This document shows, piece by piece, positions 5,412-10,461 of a stretch of 33,095 bases of DNA (its first letter is position 1; the number at the start of each line of letters is the position of its first letter). Made by a program: the position numbers and the translations under genes. The notes beneath the pieces are model-generated. The model searched no databases, was not told the origin of the DNA, and saw only the letters and a list, made by a program, of their open reading frames with translations. The stretch is taken from the IMG/VR virus record IMGVR_UViG_3300045988_124089. One strand, 5' to 3'. The stretch is from a virus.

Positions 5412-5864
5412 ATGACGCCGCTGAAGCCGAGAGAGTTACGGAAGCTGTATGCGATACCTTATGACATCGAGAAGCGCCAGCGGCGCATTGAACAGTTGGA
5501 GGCGCTGCAATCCGATGGGCCGCAGAGTGCTTCCGATGTGGTCAAGTCTTCCAGCGGCGAGGGAAATGCCTGTATCCTGAGTCATGCGACCGTGACGGGT
5601 ACGGATGCCTCTTTTACCCGGCGGGAAGATGAGATCAGGCGGCTCAAGGAGATCAACGCCGACCAAAAGGCGAAATACCTATACGGCCAGCGGCTCATTG
5701 AGAGCTGCGACGACTGCGAGCTCAGGGCCTTGCTGACGGCGATCTGTTCACAGGGAAAGAAGCCGCAGGATGTGGCCGTGGAGCTCATGGAGCAGGGCGT
5801 GGATATCGGGTCAGAGGCCATTCGTCGGCGAGTCGAACGGTGGATCAACCAGAATGCGAGGTAA
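5412..5864 (+). CDS. Putative late-gene transcriptional regulator (ArpU/RinA/DUF1492-like, sigma-region-4-like C-terminus)
   Basis: AAGGAGG RBS. Coiled N-terminal part and a C-terminal helix-rich segment (LRALLTAICSQGKKPQDVAVELMEQG...IRRRVERW). Its position just upstream of the packaging operon is typical for such regulators. Weak, pattern-based call. Confidence 0.35.
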   Translation: MTPLKPRELRKLYAIPYDIEKRQRRIEQLEALQSDGPQSASDVVKSSSGEGNACILSHATVTGTDASFTRREDEIRRLKEINADQKAKYLYGQRLIESCDDCELRALLTAICSQGKKPQDVAVELMEQGVDIGSEAIRRRVERWINQNAR

Positions 5865-5913: not shown

Positions 5914-6318
5914 ATGAAACTGATTATTGCGAACAACGGTAAAGCGACTATCAATGCGGATTATATTGTGAGCATGAAATGCTTATATACCAAACAACTT
6001 TCCACGGGCGAAGAAAGATATTCCATTGTAGCTGACACGATAAACGATAAAAATTATGTTATTCAAGATGGTCTCACGGAAAGCGAAGCGACCCGACGCC
6101 TTGAAAAAATTGCAAACTATATTGTCCCCGATGAAAGCTTTGTAATTTCGTTTGGAGAAAACAACGGGGTTTATAGTTGCATTTGCAAAAAAGAAAAAAC
6201 AAATTGTTTGATGTGCGATAATTACGGCGGCCATGGAAAATGCAAAATGGCCGCCGCTGTATGCGAATCGAACGACATAAAAACATGTTGCAGATATTAC
6301 CGGGAGAAGGAAGATTGA
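5914..6318 (+). CDS. Hypothetical protein, Cys-rich C-terminus, AT-rich orphan gene
   Basis: AAGGAGGAG RBS at 5901-5909. 134-aa ORF with 10 Cys in the last ~50 residues (CICKKEKTNCLMCDNYGGHGKCKMAAAVCESNDIKTCC). Strong drop in GC relative to the flanks. Confidence 0.6.
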   Translation: MKLIIANNGKATINADYIVSMKCLYTKQLSTGEERYSIVADTINDKNYVIQDGLTESEATRRLEKIANYIVPDESFVISFGENNGVYSCICKKEKTNCLMCDNYGGHGKCKMAAAVCESNDIKTCCRYYREKED

Positions 6319-6346
6319 AACTTCTACGATAATGCGTAAATTCCGT

Positions 6347-6396
6347 GTCCGATTTGTCCGAAATGTCCGATTTGTCCGAAATGTCCGGAATGTCCG
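6347..6396. repeat. Six GTCCG motifs at exact 9-bp phasing (18-bp unit GTCCGATTTGTCCGAAAT x2 plus 2 more)
   Basis: GTCCG starts at 6347, 6356, 6365, 6374, 6383 and 6392. The array abuts and overlaps the -35 position of the promoter at 6406-6414. Confidence 0.85.
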
Positions 6397-6405
6397 TTTT
6401 TGTTA

Positions 6406-6414
6406 TGCTATAAT
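6406..6414 (+). promoter_or_regulatory. Extended -10 promoter element TGcTATAAT (candidate late promoter, no recognisable -35)
   Basis: TATAAT at 6409-6414 preceded by TG at 6406-6407. The -35 position reads CGGAAT, inside the GTCCG array, which suggests activator dependence. Confidence 0.45.
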
Positions 6415-6580
6415 CATAATGCGGTTATTGGGTGAGACATCCAGACCGCTCATTGTGGATTCGAAGACTCCCGGCGGGAAACATAGCACGGCGATGGAAC
6501 GACGTGCTCAATGGGAATTGCGCCGTCCGCTCCAAAACCCAGCGGCGTATGACCAACAAGACAACACTTCCACCCGGCGG

Positions 6581-6597
6581 GTGTCCATTGTGGACAC
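6581..6597. repeat. Palindrome copy 2: GTGTCCA-TTG-TGGACAC (late leader)
   Basis: Exact half-sites. With the flanking G/C it can form an 8-bp hairpin (6580-6598). Confidence 0.9.
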
Positions 6598-6607
6598 CTT
6601 ACGATAT

Positions 6608-6716
6608 GCTGTTGAGCTCACACAATGGCAGAGTACCACTTGCACAGTGCAAGACAGCATTGACGTAAGACGTTACGTTGATGCGGGTGACGGTTCGAAT
6701 CCGTCCGACAGCACCA
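6608..6716 (+). ncRNA. tRNA-like element (non-canonical, 109 nt including encoded ACCA)
   Basis: - Acceptor: 6608-6614 GCTGTTG pairs with 6706-6712 CGACAGC (7 bp, one G-U).
- D arm: GCTC/GAGT at 6616-6619/6631-6634, with A14, GG and A21 in the loop.
- T arm: GACGG-TTCGAAT-CCGTC at 6689-6705.
- 3' end: discriminator A plus CCA at 6713-6716.
- Deviations: only 1 nt between acceptor and D stem; the anticodon arm is replaced by a CTTGC/GCAAG hairpin (6639-6653); an extra 12-bp hairpin sits at 6657-6684. Confidence 0.45.
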
Positions 6717-6781
6717 GACGCGCACCCTTTGAGGGGGCGGCGCGAATAGCGGAGCATCTGGCCGCGAAAGTTCCAGATGCA

Positions 6782-6852
6782 GCGGAACCTTATCTCTTGA
6801 GCCTTCTGGTGAAATTGATATGCGGTGGAATGCAAGGTTCCGCTTATTTTTA
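6782..6852 (+). terminator. Terminator/attenuator-like hairpin immediately upstream of the HNH gene
   Basis: GCGGAACCTT (6782-6791) pairs perfectly with AAGGTTCCGC (6834-6843) and is followed by TTATTTTTA. The 42-nt enclosed loop is atypically large. Confidence 0.4.
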
Positions 6853-6870
6853 TGCAAACGAGGCGGACAC

Positions 6871-7164
6871 ATGGCAAAGGAATATGCACAAGCGTTTTAT
6901 AAAAGCAAGACGTGGCAGCAGTGCCGGGACGCTTATGCTGCCAGTGTGGGCGGGCTGTGTGAGGAGTGCCTGAAGGATGGCATCATCACAGCGGGCGAGA
7001 TCGTTCACCACAAAATCCATGTGTCACCTGATACCATACAAAACCCGGATGTCCTGTTAAATTGGAATAATCTGGAGTTGGTCTGTCGGAGTTGTCATCT
7101 AAAATTACATGGCAATCAGAAAAGATATTCGGTTGACCCGGCGGGGCGTGTGATTCCGCGCTGA
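6871..7164 (+). CDS. Phage HNH endonuclease (packaging-associated)
   Basis: MAKEYAQAFYKSKTWQQCRDAY...CEEC...AGEIVHHKIHV...NLELVCRSCHLKLH gives CxxC...HH...N...CxxCH. GAGG RBS 7 nt upstream. It lies directly before terS/terL, as in HK97-like cos phages. Confidence 0.85.
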   Translation: MAKEYAQAFYKSKTWQQCRDAYAASVGGLCEECLKDGIITAGEIVHHKIHVSPDTIQNPDVLLNWNNLELVCRSCHLKLHGNQKRYSVDPAGRVIPR

Positions 7165-7288
7165 AATTTTGCGCATACTCCCCCCTGTCAAAAATATTTT
7201 GCTAACCACAGGAGACCGAGGGGCAAGGTTCATTTTTCCGCTCTCAGGATCTCAGGAATTTTTTTGGAAAGAAAGGAGTTGCAGGAAG
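7165..7288. other. Candidate cos / terminase recognition region
   Basis: Non-coding gap between HNH and terS, with a C-run (CTCCCCCCTG, 7179-7188) and tandem CTCAGGA x2 (7243-7257). The location is typical for cos in HNH-dependent packaging. No ends can be seen from sequence alone. Confidence 0.25.
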
Positions 7289-7633
7289 TTGGCGCAGAAA
7301 AGCACGACTTGTTCGAAATTGCTCCGAATGGCAAAGGATTACGGCGTGGAAAAAAACGCCCTTTTCCTGCAAGCCGTGGAGCAGTACGACGTTCAGGCGC
7401 GGGTGATCCAGAACATCAAAAACGCGCTGGACGAAGAGGATGGCCACCTTGTTACCTCGAAGGAGTATGTCAAGGGCCGTGAGAATATCTATGCAAACCC
7501 ACTGGTCAAAGAGCTGCCGAAGCACGCCGACGCGGCAAACCGCACACTCCAGACCATGTTGACCATCATCGAAAAGCTGGGAAAGGCCCCGGAGCCGAAA
7601 GACCGGCTGACGGAGATGCAGAAAGATGGATAA
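7289..7633 (+). CDS. terS: Terminase small subunit (P27-like)
   Basis: In-frame TTG 7289 lies 10 nt after GAAAGGAG (alternative ATG 7328). About 100-115 aa, overlaps the terL start, and has the C-terminal ...KLGKAPEPKDRL typical of P27-type terS. Confidence 0.6.
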   Translation: MAQKSTTCSKLLRMAKDYGVEKNALFLQAVEQYDVQARVIQNIKNALDEEDGHLVTSKEYVKGRENIYANPLVKELPKHADAANRTLQTMLTIIEKLGKAPEPKDRLTEMQKDG

Positions 7634-9275
7634 CTACATCTTTTCCTACTATCAGGCCATTGAGGACGGCTCCATCGTTGTGGGCCAGTGGATCAAACGA
7701 TTCTACCGCTATATTGTGAAGGGACTGCAAGAGCAGTCCTTTTTCTTTGACCAAAAACGCGCCTCCAAAGCGATCCGCTACATCGAAACATTCTGCCACC
7801 ACAGCGAAGGACGCTCTGACGTCATCAAGCTGGAACTGTGGCAGAAGGCTTTTGTTTCGGTGGTGTTCGGCATTCTGGACGGCAACGGAAACCGGCAGTT
7901 TCGCGAGGTCGTGCTCATTATGGCACGCAAGAACGGCAAAACGCTGTTTGCGTCGGCGATCATTTCCTATTGCACCTTTCTGGATGGCGAGTATGGTGCG
8001 AAGACCTTTTGCGTTGCGCCAAAGCTGGATCAGGCCGATTTGGTCTATGAGGCGTTTTGGCAGAGCACCGTCAACGAGCCGGAGCTTGCCCGGCGCATCA
8101 AGCGGCGCAAGTCTGACTTGTATGTGGCCGAGAGCAACAGCTCTATCAAAAAGATTGCTTTTAATGCAAAAAAATCTGATGGTTTTAATCCCTCGCTGAC
8201 CATCTGCGATGAGATCAGCTCATGGCCCGGCGATCAGGGCCTCAAGCAATACGAGGTCATGAAATCGGCCCTCGGTGCCCGGCGTCAGCCGCTGATCCTG
8301 AGCATTTCCACGGCGGGCTACATCAACGAGGGAATCTATGATGAGCTCATCAAGCGCAGCACCCGCTTTTTGCTGGGCGATTCCCGCGAAAAGCGGCTTG
8401 CGCCGTTTCTGTACATGATCGACGACATTGGCAAGTGGAACGATATCAACGAGCTGCGCAAATCCAACCCAAACCTCGGCGTTTCGGTCTCGGTGGACTA
8501 CCTGCTGGAAGAGATTGCCGTGGCAGAAGGGAGCCTTTCCAAAAAGGCGGAATTTATCACAAAATACTGCAACATCAAGCAGAACAGCTCACAGGCATGG
8601 CTCCCGACCGACGCCGTGGAAAAGTGCAGCGGAGAGCGCTTGAACTTCGAAAACTTCCGCTCCAGCTACTGCGTGGGCGGCATCGACCTGTCCCGAACCA
8701 CCGACCTGACCGCTTGCGTCGCCGTGGTCGAGAAAAACGACCGACTGAAAGTTTTCGCACAGTTTTTCCTTCCCAGCGAAAAGCTGGAAGAAGCCACGGC
8801 CCGCGATGGTCTGCCGTATCCGCTGTATGTCCAGCGTGGTCTGCTGAAACTGTCCGGCGAGAATTTCGTGGATTATCACGACTGCTTCGATTGGTTCCGA
8901 ATGCTGGTGGAGCAGTACCAGATTCTGCCGCTCAAGGTCGGATATGACCGCTATACCGCGCAGTATCTGGTGCAGGACATGGAAAACTATGGTTTTCAGA
9001 TGGATGACGTTTTTCAGGGCTTCAACCTGACGCCGGTCATCCGCGAGACCGAGGGCTTGATGAAAGATGGCGTGTTTGACATCGGCGACAACGACCTTCT
9101 CAAGGCCCACCTCCTCAACATGGGCATGAAGATGGATGTCGAGAGCGGGCGGATGCGCCCCGTCAAAATCAGCGTCAATGACCACATCGACGGCGGTGCC
9201 GCCCTGCTGGATGCTATGACCGTTCGGCAGAAGTGGGGCGCAGAGATCGGCCAGCAACTGAAAAACAAGGAGTGA
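7626..9275 (+). CDS. terL: Terminase large subunit
   Basis: 549 aa. Walker A-like LIMARKNGKT, Walker B/coupling ICDEISSW, and a C-terminal nuclease region with GIDLS...D. Canonical position. Confidence 0.93.
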   Translation: MDNYIFSYYQAIEDGSIVVGQWIKRFYRYIVKGLQEQSFFFDQKRASKAIRYIETFCHHSEGRSDVIKLELWQKAFVSVVFGILDGNGNRQFREVVLIMARKNGKTLFASAIISYCTFLDGEYGAKTFCVAPKLDQADLVYEAFWQSTVNEPELARRIKRRKSDLYVAESNSSIKKIAFNAKKSDGFNPSLTICDEISSWPGDQGLKQYEVMKSALGARRQPLILSISTAGYINEGIYDELIKRSTRFLLGDSREKRLAPFLYMIDDIGKWNDINELRKSNPNLGVSVSVDYLLEEIAVAEGSLSKKAEFITKYCNIKQNSSQAWLPTDAVEKCSGERLNFENFRSSYCVGGIDLSRTTDLTACVAVVEKNDRLKVFAQFFLPSEKLEEATARDGLPYPLYVQRGLLKLSGENFVDYHDCFDWFRMLVEQYQILPLKVGYDRYTAQYLVQDMENYGFQMDDVFQGFNLTPVIRETEGLMKDGVFDIGDNDLLKAHLLNMGMKMDVESGRMRPVKISVNDHIDGGAALLDAMTVRQKWGAEIGQQLKNKE

Positions 9276-9279
9276 GATC

Positions 9280-10461
9280 ATGGGACTTTTTGAGTCAATT
9301 TTCGGCAAACAGAAAATTGCAAAGCCGTCGCAGGGATTTTGGACGCTGCTGGACGGGTACACTCCGACTTTTACCAGTTGGGGCGGCGAACTCTACGAGA
9401 GCGAGGTCATTCGTGCCGCTGTCCACGCAAGTGCGAACCATGTGAGCAAGCTCAGCGTCAAGGTGCTGGGCAGTGCACAGCCGGAGTTGCAAACCAGACT
9501 CCGCCATGCGCCGAACGAGTGGCAGACGTGGGGGCAGTTTTTGTACCGGCTCTCAACGATTTTGGATATGCAAAACACTGCTTTTATCGTCAAGATAAGA
9601 GATGAGTTTGACCATGTCACAGGTATTTATCCGCTTATGCCCAACATGTGCACGATCTTGTCTACACCAAACGGCCCGCTGCTCCGATATACGTTCCGAA
9701 ACGGGAAACAGGCCGACACGTTAATGAGTGATTGCGGGATTTTGACAAAATTCCAGTATCAAAACGATGTGTTCGGGGAAGACAACAAAGCGTTGAGCGC
9801 CACAATGGATCTTATCAACATCCAGAATCAGGGCATTCAGGAAGCTGTTAAAAATTCAGCTTCCTTCCGTTTTATGGCCCAGCTTAAGAATTTTGCAACA
9901 GCGAAAGACCTGAAAGAAGCGCGGGAAAATTTCAACAAAGAAAATCTTCAGGGCGAAGGCGGCGGAATGCTGCTTTTCCCCAATACCTACACCAACGTTC
10001 AGCAACTGAATAATACGCCCTATGTCGCCAGCAACGAGGAAATGGAGCGAATTCGGACTAATGTGTTCGATTATTTCGGCGTGAATGAAGATGTTTTGCA
10101 AAACAAAGCTTATGGTGATGCGTGGAATGCGTTTTACGAGGGCCGCATCAAACCGTTTGCAATCCAGTTCAGCGATGTTGTCAGCCGAATGCTGTTCAGC
10201 GACAACGAACGTGCACGCGGAACGCAGATCATGGCCACGAGCAACCGGCTGCAATACATGAGCAACACCGAAAAACTCAACGTTTCGGCCCAGATGGCCG
10301 ACCGGGGAATCATGAACCGGGATGAGATTCGCGAAATCTGGAACCTCGACCCGCTCCCGGATGGGCAGGGAAAAGCCTATACCATCCGCGGCGAGTATTA
10401 TCTGCTCAACGACAACGGCGAAGCGCCCAAGAAAGGAGAAAAAACACCAGATGCAAAATGA
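9280..10461 (+). CDS. Portal protein (HK97-family-like)
   Basis: 393 aa, directly after terL and before the prohead protease. AAGGAG RBS. Confidence 0.85.
   Translation: MGLFESIFGKQKIAKPSQGFWTLLDGYTPTFTSWGGELYESEVIRAAVHASANHVSKLSVKVLGSAQPELQTRLRHAPNEWQTWGQFLYRLSTILDMQNTAFIVKIRDEFDHVTGIYPLMPNMCTILSTPNGPLLRYTFRNGKQADTLMSDCGILTKFQYQNDVFGEDNKALSATMDLINIQNQGIQEAVKNSASFRFMAQLKNFATAKDLKEARENFNKENLQGEGGGMLLFPNTYTNVQQLNNTPYVASNEEMERIRTNVFDYFGVNEDVLQNKAYGDAWNAFYEGRIKPFAIQFSDVVSRMLFSDNERARGTQIMATSNRLQYMSNTEKLNVSAQMADRGIMNRDEIREIWNLDPLPDGQGKAYTIRGEYYLLNDNGEAPKKGEKTPDAK

What the first reader, a model, noticed from the sequence alone, without database searches (positions are those of the whole stretch)
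6608..6716. Non-canonical tRNA-like element embedded in the late-operon leader
**tRNA-like features**
- A 7-bp acceptor stem (one G-U pair).
- A textbook D arm (GCTC...GAGT with A14, G18G19, A21).
- A textbook T arm (GACGG TTCGAAT CCGTC).
- An encoded discriminator-A plus CCA.

**Non-tRNA features**
- It is 109 nt long.
- Only one nucleotide separates acceptor and D stem.
- The anticodon arm is replaced by a 5-bp hairpin with a 5-nt loop (6639-6653). The best 7-nt loop alternative gives only 3 bp, with anticodon GCA.
- A perfect 12-bp hairpin with a GACG loop (6657-6684) occupies the variable region. That is much longer than any class II variable arm.

**Candidate functions**
- A decoding-incompetent tRNA mimic, for example a decoy for host anticodon nucleases or tRNA-targeting defence.
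- An RNase P/Z processing signal that punctuates the late mRNA.
- A CCA-adding or aminoacylation mimic.
- The tRNA-like module of a larger ornate RNA. ROOL and GOLLD RNAs of Firmicute prophages are known to sit next to or include tRNAs.
Basis: partly seen in the sequence, partly recalled or inferred. Interest (0 to 1): 0.75.

Follow-up and report, generated by a model that had tools for sequence, protein, structure and literature searches.

The report
Trimmed tRNA-like RNA in phage leader
A gut-bacterium phage carries, just ahead of its DNA-packaging genes, a 109-base RNA that keeps the top half of a tRNA but has lost the codon-reading part; it is the shortest member of an undescribed family of phage tRNA look-alikes, and its job is still unknown.

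Summary
**Observation.** It is real. A structural descriptor finds it once in the window, against 0.02 hits per shuffled window.

**What it is.** It is tRNA-derived, not a chance fold.
- Homologous leaders carry 140-155-nt versions that score 41-50 bits on Rfam tRNA (gathering score 29). They hold a ~70-nt structured insert in the variable region.
- The most distant relatives have an ordinary tRNA-Thr(UGU) in the same slot.
- The window copy is the shortest form. It has lost U8 and the 7-nt anticodon loop, and its insert has collapsed to a 12-bp hairpin.

**Conservation.**
- The acceptor, T and D stems stay paired through compensatory changes.
- The 12-bp hairpin is kept in five distinct short-form sequences, with one double compensatory change.
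- The anticodon-position hairpin is dispensable.

**Most likely role (inferred).** It is a non-decoding, tRNA-shaped processing module cut by RNase P. It would release a stable tRNA-like RNA and free the conserved two-hairpin domain that always follows a tRNA or tRNA-like 3' end in this phage group.

**Excluded.** ROOL, GOLLD, tmRNA and YrlA are not supported. The decoy idea remains open.

**Verdict.** New variant of a known kind.

The parts
6346..6396 (+). Six direct TGTCCG repeats with a 9-bp period. Likely binding sites for a regulator upstream of the leader promoter.
   Evidence: Read from the sequence. The repeats are conserved in relatives. The function is inferred.
6406..6414 (+). Extended -10 promoter element, TGcTATAAT. 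The transcript would start near 6421.
   Evidence: Read from the sequence and conserved in the alignment. The consensus scan did not list it because there is no -35 hexamer. Inferred.
6421..6579 (+). Structured 5' leader domain. It contains a remnant of the D and anticodon arms of a tRNA-Trp at 6506-6539.
   Evidence: The consensus fold shows some compensatory pairs. The local alignment to a phage tRNA-Trp scores 33, against 17.4 +/- 3.6 for shuffles; 1 of 500 shuffles reaches that score.
6580..6598 (+). Hairpin GGUGUCCA-UUG-UGGACACC, 9 nt upstream of the tRNA-like element. In L008 it is followed by a U-run and looks like a terminator; in the window the U-run is degenerate.
   Evidence: All 7 pairs are invariant in 8 sequences.
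6608..6716 (+). The tRNA-like element as a whole, 109 nt.
   Evidence: Fold, descriptor against shuffles, homology to 140-155-nt tRNA-like genes, and covariation.
6608..6614 (+). Acceptor stem, 5' strand. It pairs with 6706-6712. The base at -1 is U.
   Evidence: Four of the 7 pairs show changes on both sides across the family, and 99.5% of cells are paired. The base at -1 is T in 91 of 91 distinct family members.
6616..6634 (+). D arm: a 4-bp stem and an 11-nt loop containing GG. It is preceded by a single connector, A6615; U8 is missing.
   Evidence: The stem is 100% paired in 29 sequences.
6639..6653 (+). Hairpin at the anticodon-arm position: 5-6 bp with a 3-5-nt loop. It is homologous to the extended anticodon arm of the L002-type relatives. 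It cannot decode and appears dispensable.
   Evidence: L233 carries a 7-nt deletion that removes it. L265 has an A-to-C change that breaks the sixth pair.
6657..6684 (+). 12-bp hairpin (10 Watson-Crick and 2 G-U pairs) with a GACG loop, in the variable region. It is what remains of the family's ~70-nt variable-region domain; the basal helix CAUUGRC/GUURAUG is shared with relatives.
   Evidence: It is 100% paired in 5 distinct short-form sequences. Three pairs vary, and one of them changes on both sides (A-U to G-C).
6689..6705 (+). T arm: GACGG UUCGAAU CCGUC.
   Evidence: Three of the 5 pairs change on both sides across the family, and the stem is 100% paired.
6706..6716 (+). Acceptor stem 3' strand (6706-6712), discriminator A6713, and encoded CCA (6714-6716).
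   Evidence: CCA is encoded only in the window's lineage of the family.
6717..6782 (+). Conserved 3' domain. It consists of hairpin H1 (6719-6744), the linker AAUAGCGGA, and hairpin H2 (6754-6780) with the invariant loop CCGCGAAAGUU. In this phage group it always lies directly 3' of a tRNA or tRNA-like end.
   Evidence: The pattern occurs in more than 119 viral contigs. Its context is shown. The H1 helix has at least 5 different sequences, and H2 covaries. No Rfam family matches.
6781..6853 (+). Intrinsic-terminator-like hairpin. The arms are 6781-6791 and 6834-6844, followed by a U-run. Its 5' arm begins at the AGCGG that ends the 3' domain.
   Evidence: Read from the sequence. The scan flags 6824-6844 plus a T-run. 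An equivalent terminator is present in relatives.
6871..7164 (+). HNH endonuclease gene, the first gene of the packaging module. It is followed by terS (7169-7633), terL (7626-9275) and portal (9280-10461).
   Evidence: Pfam and PHROGs matches.

Best explanation
**What it is.** The element is a non-decoding RNA module derived from a tRNA gene. It sits in the leader that precedes the packaging genes of a temperate phage, whose relatives live in Faecalibacterium. It is the most reduced member of a phage-specific family of tRNA or tRNA-like genes that carry a large structured insert in the variable region. That family occupies a 'tRNA slot' which holds an ordinary tRNA-Thr(UGU) in the most distant relatives.

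**What selection has kept and lost.**
- Kept: the 12-bp acceptor/T-arm helix, the D-arm/T-loop elbow, U at -1, the ACCA end, and the basal helix of the variable arm. These are the parts recognised by tRNA end-processing enzymes.
- Lost: U8, the anticodon loop, and most of the insert.

**How it most likely works (inferred).**
1. The leader is transcribed from the TGcTATAAT promoter.
2. RNase P cuts between U6607 and G6608.
3. The 3' side is cut and trimmed back to the encoded CCA.
4. This releases a stable ~109-nt tRNA-shaped RNA.
5. It also separates the 5' leader from the conserved two-hairpin 3' domain with its terminator (about 135 nt) and from any read-through mRNA.

In short, it acts as tRNA-type punctuation. 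Whether the released RNA has a further role, such as binding a host or phage factor that recognises tRNA acceptor ends, is not known.

**Shown:** the structure, the homology, the covariation and the genomic context.
**Inferred:** transcription, processing and function.
For: **Structure.** The fold matches the description, and the descriptor hit is far above chance.

**Homology.**
- Leaders of L001, L002, L009-L012 and others align through the element.
- Their 140-146-nt versions, and the 136-155-nt types A to C, score 41-50 bits on Rfam tRNA.
- A canonical tRNA-Thr(UGU) occupies the same slot after the same hairpin in L008, L247 and L249.

**Selection on the tRNA core.**
- Between the window and its sister L002 type, three acceptor pairs and two T-stem pairs differ, and all remain paired. 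Four of these are changes on both sides.
- Family-wide, the acceptor stem is 99.5% paired, the T stem 100% and the D stem 100%.
- The whole tested structure is 91.4% paired, against 82.2% in shuffles; 0 of 500 shuffles reach the observed value.

**The short form is conserved.**
- Five distinct sequences on at least 10 contigs differ at 10 or fewer positions.
- Among the four closest copies there are at most 2 mismatches in 109 nt, while the 270 nt upstream differ by 17-24 positions in most pairs. L230 and L231 differ by only 2 there, and L232 and L233 by 9.

**The 12-bp hairpin.** All four substitutions that fall in it in L265 keep the pairing.

**Fit to processing.**
- U is at -1 in 91 of 91 distinct family members, with a (U/G)AUAU spacer.
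- Leaders in the family are arrays of tRNAs and tRNA-like modules separated by such spacers.
- The invariant 3' domain always starts 0-4 nt after a tRNA or tRNA-like 3' end, whichever one it is: tRNA-Trp, the insert-bearing type, or the short type.

**Not coding.** Relatives differ by indels of 7, 37 and about 100 nt, and the spanning ORF has no family match.
Against: - There is no expression or processing data.
- A simple cleavage site would not need a 12-bp extra hairpin.
- The strong conservation of the ~70-nt variable-region domain, and of the anticodon-loop sequence in relatives, points to a function beyond punctuation. The window copy may have lost that function.
- An encoded CCA blocks RNase Z in the Bacillus and E. 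coli systems that have been studied (my own knowledge). The 3' cut would therefore need another nuclease.
- The low divergence of the element compared with its flanks could reflect recent exchange of the module rather than purifying selection.
- The short-form alignment has only 5 sequences, so its covariation statistics carry no weight on their own: 191 of 500 shuffles match the observed value.
Confidence: 0.55

Rival explanations
1. It is a neutral pseudogene: a tRNA (or insert-bearing tRNA-like) gene that is decaying by deletion. It has no function of its own and is carried along with the leader.
For: - U8 is lost, the 7-nt anticodon loop is lost, and the ~70-nt variable-region domain has been reduced to a hairpin.
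- The Rfam tRNA score has fallen to 15.7 bits, against 41-50 bits in relatives.
- A natural variant has a further 7-nt deletion.
- The same leader holds an obvious tRNA-Trp remnant at 6506-6539, so tRNA decay does happen in this region.
Against: - Every remaining stem is fully paired.
- Differences from the sister type in the acceptor and T stems are compensated: four changes on both sides and one change to a wobble pair.
- All four substitutions in the 12-bp hairpin of L265 preserve pairing.
- The element is less diverged than its flanks.
- It persists in phages with different downstream packaging modules.
Confidence: 0.2
2. It is a counter-defence tRNA mimic. The RNA soaks up or blocks a host nuclease or toxin that targets tRNAs, such as an anticodon nuclease or an enzyme that modifies or cleaves the acceptor end. 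This would parallel phage tRNAs that rescue infection from retron, PARIS or Septu effectors.
For: - Relatives keep anticodon-like loops that cannot decode normally, either because position 33 is a purine or because the stem is 8 bp.
- These loops are strongly conserved: CAUUUAA occurs in 72 of 89 distinct sequences.
- Near-identical copies differ just at anticodon positions: CAUUUAA against GAGUUAA, and CUGAUAC against CUGGUAC.
- A tRNA-Lys(UUU) gene accompanies the element in several relatives.
- Phage tRNAs are known to evade tRNA-cleaving defences (PMC11555353, PMC11464382, PMC13096335).
Against: - The window copy has no anticodon-like loop at all, and one relative lacks the whole hairpin. 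At best it could mimic the acceptor/T half of a tRNA.
- No defence or anti-defence gene is linked to it in the window.
- Nothing has been tested.
Confidence: 0.12
3. It is one domain of a single larger functional RNA of about 430 nt (6421-6850). That RNA would act in cis on late transcription, for example as a leader that modifies RNA polymerase or switches between terminator and antiterminator. Alternatively it would be a large ornate RNA.
For: - The whole leader is conserved and structured. The 5' domain is closed by a long-range helix that ends next to the element, and some pairs covary.
- Two terminator-like hairpins lie between the promoter and the HNH gene.
- The 3' domain abuts a terminator whose 5' arm overlaps the conserved AGCGG.
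Against: - The modules occur in different orders and combinations in relatives. The tRNA-like lies after the 3' domain in most contigs and before it in the window lineage. The 5' domain is absent in L008, partly deleted in L001, and interrupted by an ORF in L010.
- No pairing between the element and its flanks is predicted, other than adjacency.
- There is no ROOL, GOLLD or other large-RNA match in Rfam.
Confidence: 0.1
4. It is a DNA-level site, such as a cos/pac recognition site or a phage attachment site that overlaps a tRNA, rather than an RNA.
For: It lies about 150 nt upstream of the HNH-terS-terL packaging genes. There are also repeats and a palindrome nearby.
Against: - Changes on both sides of a pair keep RNA-type pairing, including G-U pairs, on one strand.
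- Many related contigs end 10-100 nt after the HNH gene, which places cos downstream of HNH and not in the leader.
- The integrase gene is 19 kb away.
- The same module sits next to different terminase types.
Confidence: 0.03

Closest known systems
Ordinary phage-encoded tRNA genes, for example the tRNA-Thr(UGU) in the same slot in L008, L247 and L249
   Same: - Same position after the same hairpin in homologous leaders.
- Same acceptor, D and T architecture.
- U at -1.
- The 5' half of the commonest insert-bearing type is identical to the tRNA-Thr of L095.
   Different: - No 7-nt anticodon loop and no U8.
- A 35-nt variable region.
- Fails ARAGORN and the Rfam threshold.
- It cannot decode.
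Phage T4 RNAC (species 1 RNA) and RNAD, small stable RNAs of the T4 tRNA cluster
   Same: - Encoded among phage tRNA genes.
- Similar size: RNAC is 139 nt.
- RNAC has a perfect T arm (CCGGG UUCGAAU CCCGG) near its 3' end, long hairpins in place of a normal body, and only a weak partial tRNA-type Rfam match of 17.5 bits.
- Its biological role is unknown (PMC3014915).
   Different: - There is no detectable relationship beyond the tRNA-like features, and no direct alignment was made.
- RNAC has no D arm or cloverleaf core like the one here.
- It belongs to a lytic coliphage, not a Faecalibacterium temperate phage.
- That RNAC is matured by tRNA-processing enzymes is my own recollection and was not checked here.
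Class II tRNAs, allo-tRNAs, and engineered aptamer-tagged tRNAs
   Same: - An extra helix emerges between the anticodon and T arms.
- Engineered tRNAs carrying a hairpin aptamer on a long variable arm can still work in translation (PMC7590224).
- Long variable arms serve as protein-recognition elements (PMC7609411).
   Different: - The variable region is 35 nt here and about 70 nt, with a pseudoknot, in relatives.
- PMC7609411 gives 4-5 nt for class I tRNAs and more than 10 nt for class II. That natural class II arms stay below about 25 nt is my own knowledge.
- The window copy has no anticodon loop.
tRNA-linked RNA biogenesis: tRNA punctuation, the E. coli 3'ETS-leuZ spacer RNA, and gammaherpesvirus tRNA-miRNA units (my own knowledge)
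   Same: A tRNA-shaped module sits directly in front of structured hairpins plus a terminator. Cleavage by tRNA-processing enzymes would define the ends of the neighbouring RNA.
   Different: No processing has been shown here, and the downstream domain has no known function.
Theta (minimal HDV-like) ribozymes next to gut-phage tRNAs (PMC10879173)
   Same: A conserved structured RNA lies immediately 3' of phage tRNA genes in gut viromes. This applies to the adjoining 3' domain, not to the tRNA-like element itself.
   Different: - I could not fit the nested double-pseudoknot HDV fold by hand.
- No HDV-type Rfam family matched.
- The hosts here are Faecalibacterium, whereas the theta ribozyme hosts are mostly Bacteroidota.
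- The domain is followed by a terminator.
Counter-defence phage tRNAs (PMC11555353, PMC11464382, PMC13096335)
   Same: These are phage-encoded tRNA variants whose value lies in their interaction with host tRNA-targeting nucleases rather than in codon supply.
   Different: Those are functional, decodable tRNAs. The window element has no anticodon loop, and no link to any defence system was found.

Membership tests
tRNA (canonical cloverleaf; Rfam RF00005) | 7-bp acceptor stem with a discriminator base (and CCA) | tested here: met
   6608-6614 pairs with 6706-6712, followed by A6713 and CCA.
tRNA (canonical cloverleaf; Rfam RF00005) | 5-bp T stem with a 7-nt GTTCRANYC-type loop, and a D arm with G18 G19 | tested here: met
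   GACGG UUCGAAU CCGUC, and GCUC-ACACAAUGGCA-GAGU.
tRNA (canonical cloverleaf; Rfam RF00005) | Two-nucleotide connector U8-N9 | tested here: not met
   There is a single A at 6615. Relatives have UA.
tRNA (canonical cloverleaf; Rfam RF00005) | 5-bp anticodon stem with a 7-nt loop, U33 and an anticodon | tested here: not met
   The hairpin has 5-6 bp and a 3-5-nt loop. It is deleted in L233.
tRNA (canonical cloverleaf; Rfam RF00005) | Variable region of 4-5 nt (class I) or a short extra arm (class II) | tested here: not met
   There are 35 nt between the two arms, including a 12-bp hairpin. Size classes are taken from PMC7609411.
tRNA (canonical cloverleaf; Rfam RF00005) | Score at or above the Rfam gathering score (29 bits), or detection by ARAGORN | tested here: not met
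   The window gives a partial 15.7-bit match. ARAGORN finds 0 genes, and its relaxed modes are inconsistent. Relatives score 41-50 bits.
Insert-bearing tRNA-like family of Faecalibacterium-type phages (defined here) | Homologous position and flanks, and a shared tRNA core whose stems covary | tested here: met
Insert-bearing tRNA-like family of Faecalibacterium-type phages (defined here) | A ~70-nt variable-region domain with the TGGY:RCCA pairing, an outer helix and an inner hairpin | tested here: not met
   The window keeps only the basal helix CAUUGAC/GUUGAUG, capped by a short hairpin. It is a truncated derivative.
tmRNA | A tRNA-like domain split around a tag reading frame and pseudoknots | tested here: not met
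   ARAGORN finds no tmRNA. There is no Rfam match. The element is contiguous and only 109 nt.
YrlA / bacterial Y RNA | A Ro-binding helix formed by the 5' and 3' ends, with a tRNA-like module at the far end | tested here: not met
   There is no Rfam match at E up to 10. Here the two ends form the acceptor stem itself.
ROOL / GOLLD large RNAs | A match to the family covariance models (roughly 580-800 nt of conserved architecture) | tested here: not met
   There is no match in the window or in 21 related loci, at the gathering score or at permissive E-values.
HDV-like theta ribozyme (considered for the adjoining 3' domain, 6717-6782) | Located directly at the 3' end of a phage tRNA | tested here: met
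   The domain starts 0-4 nt after the tRNA or tRNA-like end in all contigs inspected.
HDV-like theta ribozyme (considered for the adjoining 3' domain, 6717-6782) | Nested double pseudoknot (P1, P1.1, P2, P3, P4) with a catalytic C in J4/2 | tested here: inconclusive
   I found no consistent assignment by hand, and no HDV-type Rfam match. No descriptor search such as RNArobo, and no cleavage assay, was possible.
T4 RNAC-type stable RNAs of phage tRNA clusters | A non-tRNA stable RNA encoded in a phage tRNA cluster, with a T arm and paired ends | tested here: inconclusive
   The architectures resemble each other. However, stability and processing of the window RNA are unknown, and no common ancestry is evident.

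The most novel reading that the evidence does not exclude
The window element and its 136-155-nt relatives form a previously undescribed structural class of phage tRNA mimics. A tRNA body carries a ~70-nt pseudoknotted domain in place of the variable loop. The anticodon loops are deliberately non-decoding (a purine at position 33, or an 8-bp stem) and vary at anticodon positions. These RNAs would work as decoys or adaptors for host tRNA-binding defence nucleases or for a phage factor. The window's 109-nt form would be a minimal mimic of the acceptor/T half. Together with the invariant two-hairpin domain that trails tRNAs in the same leaders, they would make up a new RNA-based module of Faecalibacterium phages.
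Probability: 0.22. Interest if true: 0.8.

Novelty: new variant of a known kind. Interest (0 to 1): 0.55.

Why it matters
Phage tRNA genes are usually explained by codon supply or, more recently, by escape from tRNA-cleaving defences. Here a whole lineage of gut phages keeps tRNA-shaped RNAs that cannot decode in the normal way.

- One group carries a large conserved extra domain. The window's form is stripped down to the half of a tRNA that processing enzymes recognise.
- If these are processing handles, they show how phages use the host tRNA-maturation machinery to cut leader RNAs into defined pieces.
- If they are mimics that bind host factors, they would be a new RNA-based counter-defence.
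- In either case they are invisible to ARAGORN. Infernal-based annotation would mislabel the longer ones as tRNAs.
- The conserved domain that trails them is missing from Rfam.

Faecalibacterium is a major human gut commensal, and lysogens exist, so the predictions can be tested.

Tried and rejected
**Searches that found nothing or nothing consistent**
- Rfam at the gathering score and at permissive E-values returned only tRNA. This covered the window, the 6300-6900 region and 21 related loci.
- ARAGORN found nothing in default mode. Its relaxed and intron modes gave inconsistent isotypes and boundaries.
- BLASTN of the leader against 50,697 GenBank phage records gave no match.
- An exact T-arm/acceptor pattern was absent from IMG/VR.
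- The first genome-collection scan, with a lineage-specific pattern, gave no match.
- A broader pattern for the variable-region insert in IMG/VR returned, outside the human-gut contigs, only chance matches inside coding sequence.

**Ideas considered and dropped**
- HDV-like/theta ribozyme fold for the 3' domain: no consistent P1/P2/P3/P1.1 assignment by hand.
- T-box-like pairing of UGGN with the NCCA end: the UGGC in H2 does not covary with the discriminator base.
- The 213-aa ORF 6332-6973 spanning the leader: no Pfam or PHROGs match, and relatives differ by indels that are not multiples of three.
- A cos or att site: rejected on the position of contig ends and of the integrase gene.

**Protein annotation that did not help**
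- The conserved upstream protein (5412-5864) has 128 homologues, all unnamed and without Pfam domains.
- It shows only a marginal resemblance (E = 0.065) to the protein with a weak sigma-70 region-4 match found upstream of the leader in other contigs.
- The 'late regulator' label therefore stays an inference.
Full report
**1.

- a 7-bp acceptor stem with one U-G pair;
- a single connector nucleotide;
- a GCUC/GAGU D arm with GG in its loop;
- a short hairpin where the anticodon arm should be;
- a 12-bp hairpin with a GACG loop in the variable region;
- a GACGG-UUCGAAU-CCGUC T arm;
- the 3' end ACCA.

The unconstrained minimum-free-energy fold reproduces this architecture (-41.0 kcal/mol, z = -3.45, 0 of 200 shuffles as stable).

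I wrote a descriptor requiring a T arm, a 7-bp acceptor stem and a D arm. It hits this site once in the 33-kb window. In dinucleotide-preserving shuffles it finds a mean of 0.02 sites, and 4 of 200 shuffles had any hit.

Standard detectors miss the element. ARAGORN finds nothing, and its relaxed modes contradict each other. Rfam gives only a partial 15.7-bit tRNA match against a gathering score of 29.

Two minor corrections apply. The 12-bp hairpin contains two G-U pairs. The fold also prefers 6 bp with a 3-nt loop for the first hairpin.

**2. Context.**

The window is a complete temperate phage. Its genes, in order, are:
- SSB, a replication protein with an HTH domain, a ParA-like ATPase, an XRE regulator and a ParB-like protein;
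- two small unknown proteins;
- about 550 nt without a credible gene;
- HNH endonuclease, small and large terminase, portal, further structural genes and a GH25 lysin;
- integrase and repressors on the other strand.

The non-coding stretch contains, in order:
- six TGTCCG repeats with a 9-bp period (6346-6396);
- an extended -10 element TGcTATAAT (6406-6414);
- a structured 5' domain;
- the hairpin GGUGUCCA-UUG-UGGACACC (6580-6598);
- the tRNA-like element;
- a two-hairpin 3' domain (6717-6782);
- a terminator-like hairpin with a U-run (6781-6853).

So 'leader of the packaging/late operon' is a fair description. Late timing itself is inferred from gene order only.

The 213-aa ORF that spans the region has no family match. 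It is also broken by indels of 7, 37 and about 100 nt in relatives.

**3. Relatives show what it is.**

Using the HNH protein I fetched 66 viral loci. Seven of them have a homologous leader.
- At the position of the element they carry 140-146-nt sequences with the same acceptor, D and T arms and a much longer insert between the anticodon and T arms.
- These score 41-46 bits on Rfam tRNA.
- One relative, L008, has a plain tRNA-Thr(UGU) there.
- Loci fetched through the conserved upstream protein show the same in the most distant lineage, L247 and L249.

Pattern scans then showed the insert-bearing form to be common in human-gut viral contigs. There are 89 distinct sequences of several types, 136-155 nt long.

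The insert shares these features:
- the motif AACGYUGGYGAYAC;
- an outer helix;
- an inner hairpin whose loop (YUARCCAR) can pair with the upstream UGGY.

This last pairing is present in all 24 aligned sequences that have the domain. It covaries once, UGGC:GCCA against UGGU:ACCA.

The anticodon loops are mostly CAUUUAA, with a purine where U33 should be. Variants are GAGUUAA, CGUUUAA, CUGAUAC or CUGGUAC on an 8-bp stem, and one canonical UUCCUAA.

A genome scan places relatives in a Faecalibacterium assembly. None is in GenBank phage records.

**4. The window copy is the most reduced form, but it is maintained.**

A metagenome scan and the protein-anchored loci gave five distinct short-form sequences on at least ten contigs.
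- The four closest copies differ by at most 2 positions in 109 nt. The 270 nt upstream differ by 17-24 positions in most pairs, although two pairs are much closer there (2 and 9 differences).
- L265 differs at 10 positions. Four of these lie in the 12-bp hairpin and all keep it paired: A-U to G-C on both sides, A-U to G-U, and G-U to A-U.
- With five sequences the shuffle control has no power (191 of 500). This is therefore supporting evidence, not proof.

Against the sister L002 type, three acceptor pairs and two T-stem pairs differ, and all remain paired. Four of them are changes on both sides.

Family-wide figures:

| Helix or measure | Pairs changed on both sides | Cells paired |
|---|---|---|
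| Acceptor stem | 4 of 7 | 99.5% |
| T stem | 3 of 5 | 100% |
| D stem | 0 of 4 | 100% |
| Whole tested structure | 17 of 33 | 91.4% (82.2% in shuffles; 0 of 500 shuffles as high) |

Sliding the 3' partners by 1-3 columns gives 24-49% paired.

The anticodon-position hairpin behaves differently. L233 has lost it through a 7-nt deletion, and L265 breaks its sixth pair.

The same leader also contains a clear remnant of a tRNA-Trp at 6506-6539. Decay of tRNA genes therefore does occur here.

My reading is that the element is a truncated derivative. Its acceptor/T helix, elbow, ACCA end and extra hairpin are under constraint. Its decoding end is not.

**5. How it most likely works.**

The parts that are kept are those that RNase P and the 3'-end machinery recognise. 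This rests on established knowledge of tRNA processing. Three observations fit that view.
- All 91 distinct long family members have U at -1 and a (U/G)AUAU-type spacer.
- In most related contigs the leader is an array of modules separated by such spacers. The modules are a mini tRNA-like, a second anticodon-less tRNA-like, tRNA-Met and tRNA-Trp, the 3' domain, and then the insert-bearing tRNA-like or a tRNA-Thr.
- The 3' domain starts 0-4 nt after a tRNA or tRNA-like 3' end in every contig inspected, whichever tRNA that is. Its core pattern occurs in more than 119 viral contigs, and its first helix has at least five different sequences.

I therefore favour tRNA-type punctuation. Processing would release a stable ~109-nt tRNA-shaped RNA and define the ends of the flanking leader RNAs.

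This is an inference. Its weak points are:
- the unexplained conservation of the extra hairpin here and of the ~70-nt domain and anticodon-like loops in relatives;
- the encoded CCA, which in studied bacteria blocks RNase Z (my own knowledge).

The rivals are a neutral pseudogene, a counter-defence mimic, a domain of one large cis-acting RNA, and a DNA site. They are weighed in their own sections.

**6. Comparison with known things.**
- It is not a member of the tRNA family by the usual tests. It fails on U8, the anticodon loop, the variable-region size, the Rfam score and ARAGORN, although it is clearly derived from a tRNA.
- It is not tmRNA, YrlA, ROOL or GOLLD.
- The closest analogue I could examine is T4 RNAC. 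This is a 139-nt stable RNA of the T4 tRNA cluster, with a perfect T arm, paired ends and long hairpins in place of a tRNA body. It gives only a weak tRNA-type Rfam match, and its role is still unknown (PMC3014915).
- Long or aptamer-bearing variable arms are known in class II, allo- and engineered tRNAs (PMC7609411, PMC7590224).
- Phage tRNAs that defeat tRNA-cleaving defences (PMC11555353, PMC11464382, PMC13096335) are the nearest functional precedent for the mimic idea.
- Theta ribozymes (PMC10879173) are the precedent for a conserved RNA directly 3' of gut-phage tRNAs. I could not fit the HDV fold to the 3' domain.

**7. Verdict.**

The element is a new variant of a known kind: a phage tRNA-derived, non-decoding RNA.

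The window copy alone is modestly interesting. The family behind it, and the trailing domain that Rfam does not contain, raise the interest to about 0.55.

Noticed in passing
window 6717-6782 (also L076-L191, for example L095 and L178): A conserved two-hairpin domain made of a variable helix H1, the invariant linker RUAGCGGR, and hairpin H2 with the invariant loop CCGCGAAAGUU. A GCGG:CCGC pseudoknot is possible. It lies directly 3' of a tRNA-Trp(CCA), or of the tRNA-like element, in more than 119 gut viral contigs. A terminator-like hairpin always follows. No Rfam family matches. It is a candidate new RNA motif.
   Followed up: partly
window 6346-6396 and 6580-6598: Six TGTCCG direct repeats with a 9-bp period lie upstream of the extended -10 element. 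The same pentamer in inverted orientation forms the hairpin or palindrome GGTGTCCA-TTG-TGGACACC just before the tRNA-like element. In L008 this palindrome is followed by a T-run, like a terminator. It may be a shared protein-binding motif.
   Followed up: partly
window 6506-6539: A remnant of the D arm and anticodon arm (loop CUCCAAA) of a tRNA-Trp lies inside the 5' leader domain. The alignment score is 33, against 17.4 +/- 3.6 for shuffles.
   Followed up: yes
L114 6611-6746, L198, L078 3505-3659, L250 3552-3686 and about 85 other loci: A family of 136-155-nt tRNA-like genes with a ~70-nt structured variable-region domain. The dominant anticodon loop is CAUUUAA, with A at position 33. Near-identical copies differ just at anticodon positions. 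One member has a canonical loop, UUCCUAA. They pass the Rfam tRNA threshold but ARAGORN does not call them.
   Followed up: partly
L095 and L178, 120-420 nt upstream of the 3' domain: Further anticodon-less tRNA-like modules occur in the leaders of most related contigs. Examples are GCGATAC...GGCGGTTCGATTCCGCCGTATCGCACC and GCCGCCTGAGCGCAGTTTGGAGCGC...TGGTTCGATTCCAAGGGCGGC. Together with a long conserved non-coding stretch, these leaders are arrays of tRNAs and tRNA mimics.
   Followed up: no
L008, L013, L016, L018, L020, L022, L025 and others: Many viral contigs end 10-100 nt after the HNH gene. This suggests that the cohesive ends (cos) lie between HNH and the small terminase gene. In the window that would be around 7165-7250, where the terS ORF as listed starts only 4 nt after HNH.
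   Followed up: no
L010 1350-1620 and L001 about 2712: The leader tolerates large rearrangements. L010 has an XRE-type ORF inserted between the 5' domain and the hairpin. L001 lacks about 100 nt between two CCCGGCGGG repeats.
   Followed up: no
L009, L011, L012 (about 2912-2988), L090, L232, L265 3735-3807: A canonical tRNA-Lys(UUU) sits between the leader terminator and the first late gene in several relatives. It is absent from the window.
   Followed up: no
window 5914-6318: This 134-aa ORF, between the conserved upstream protein and the repeats, is an accessory insertion. Among the loci screened with tblastn it was matched only in L121. It has no family match.
   Followed up: no
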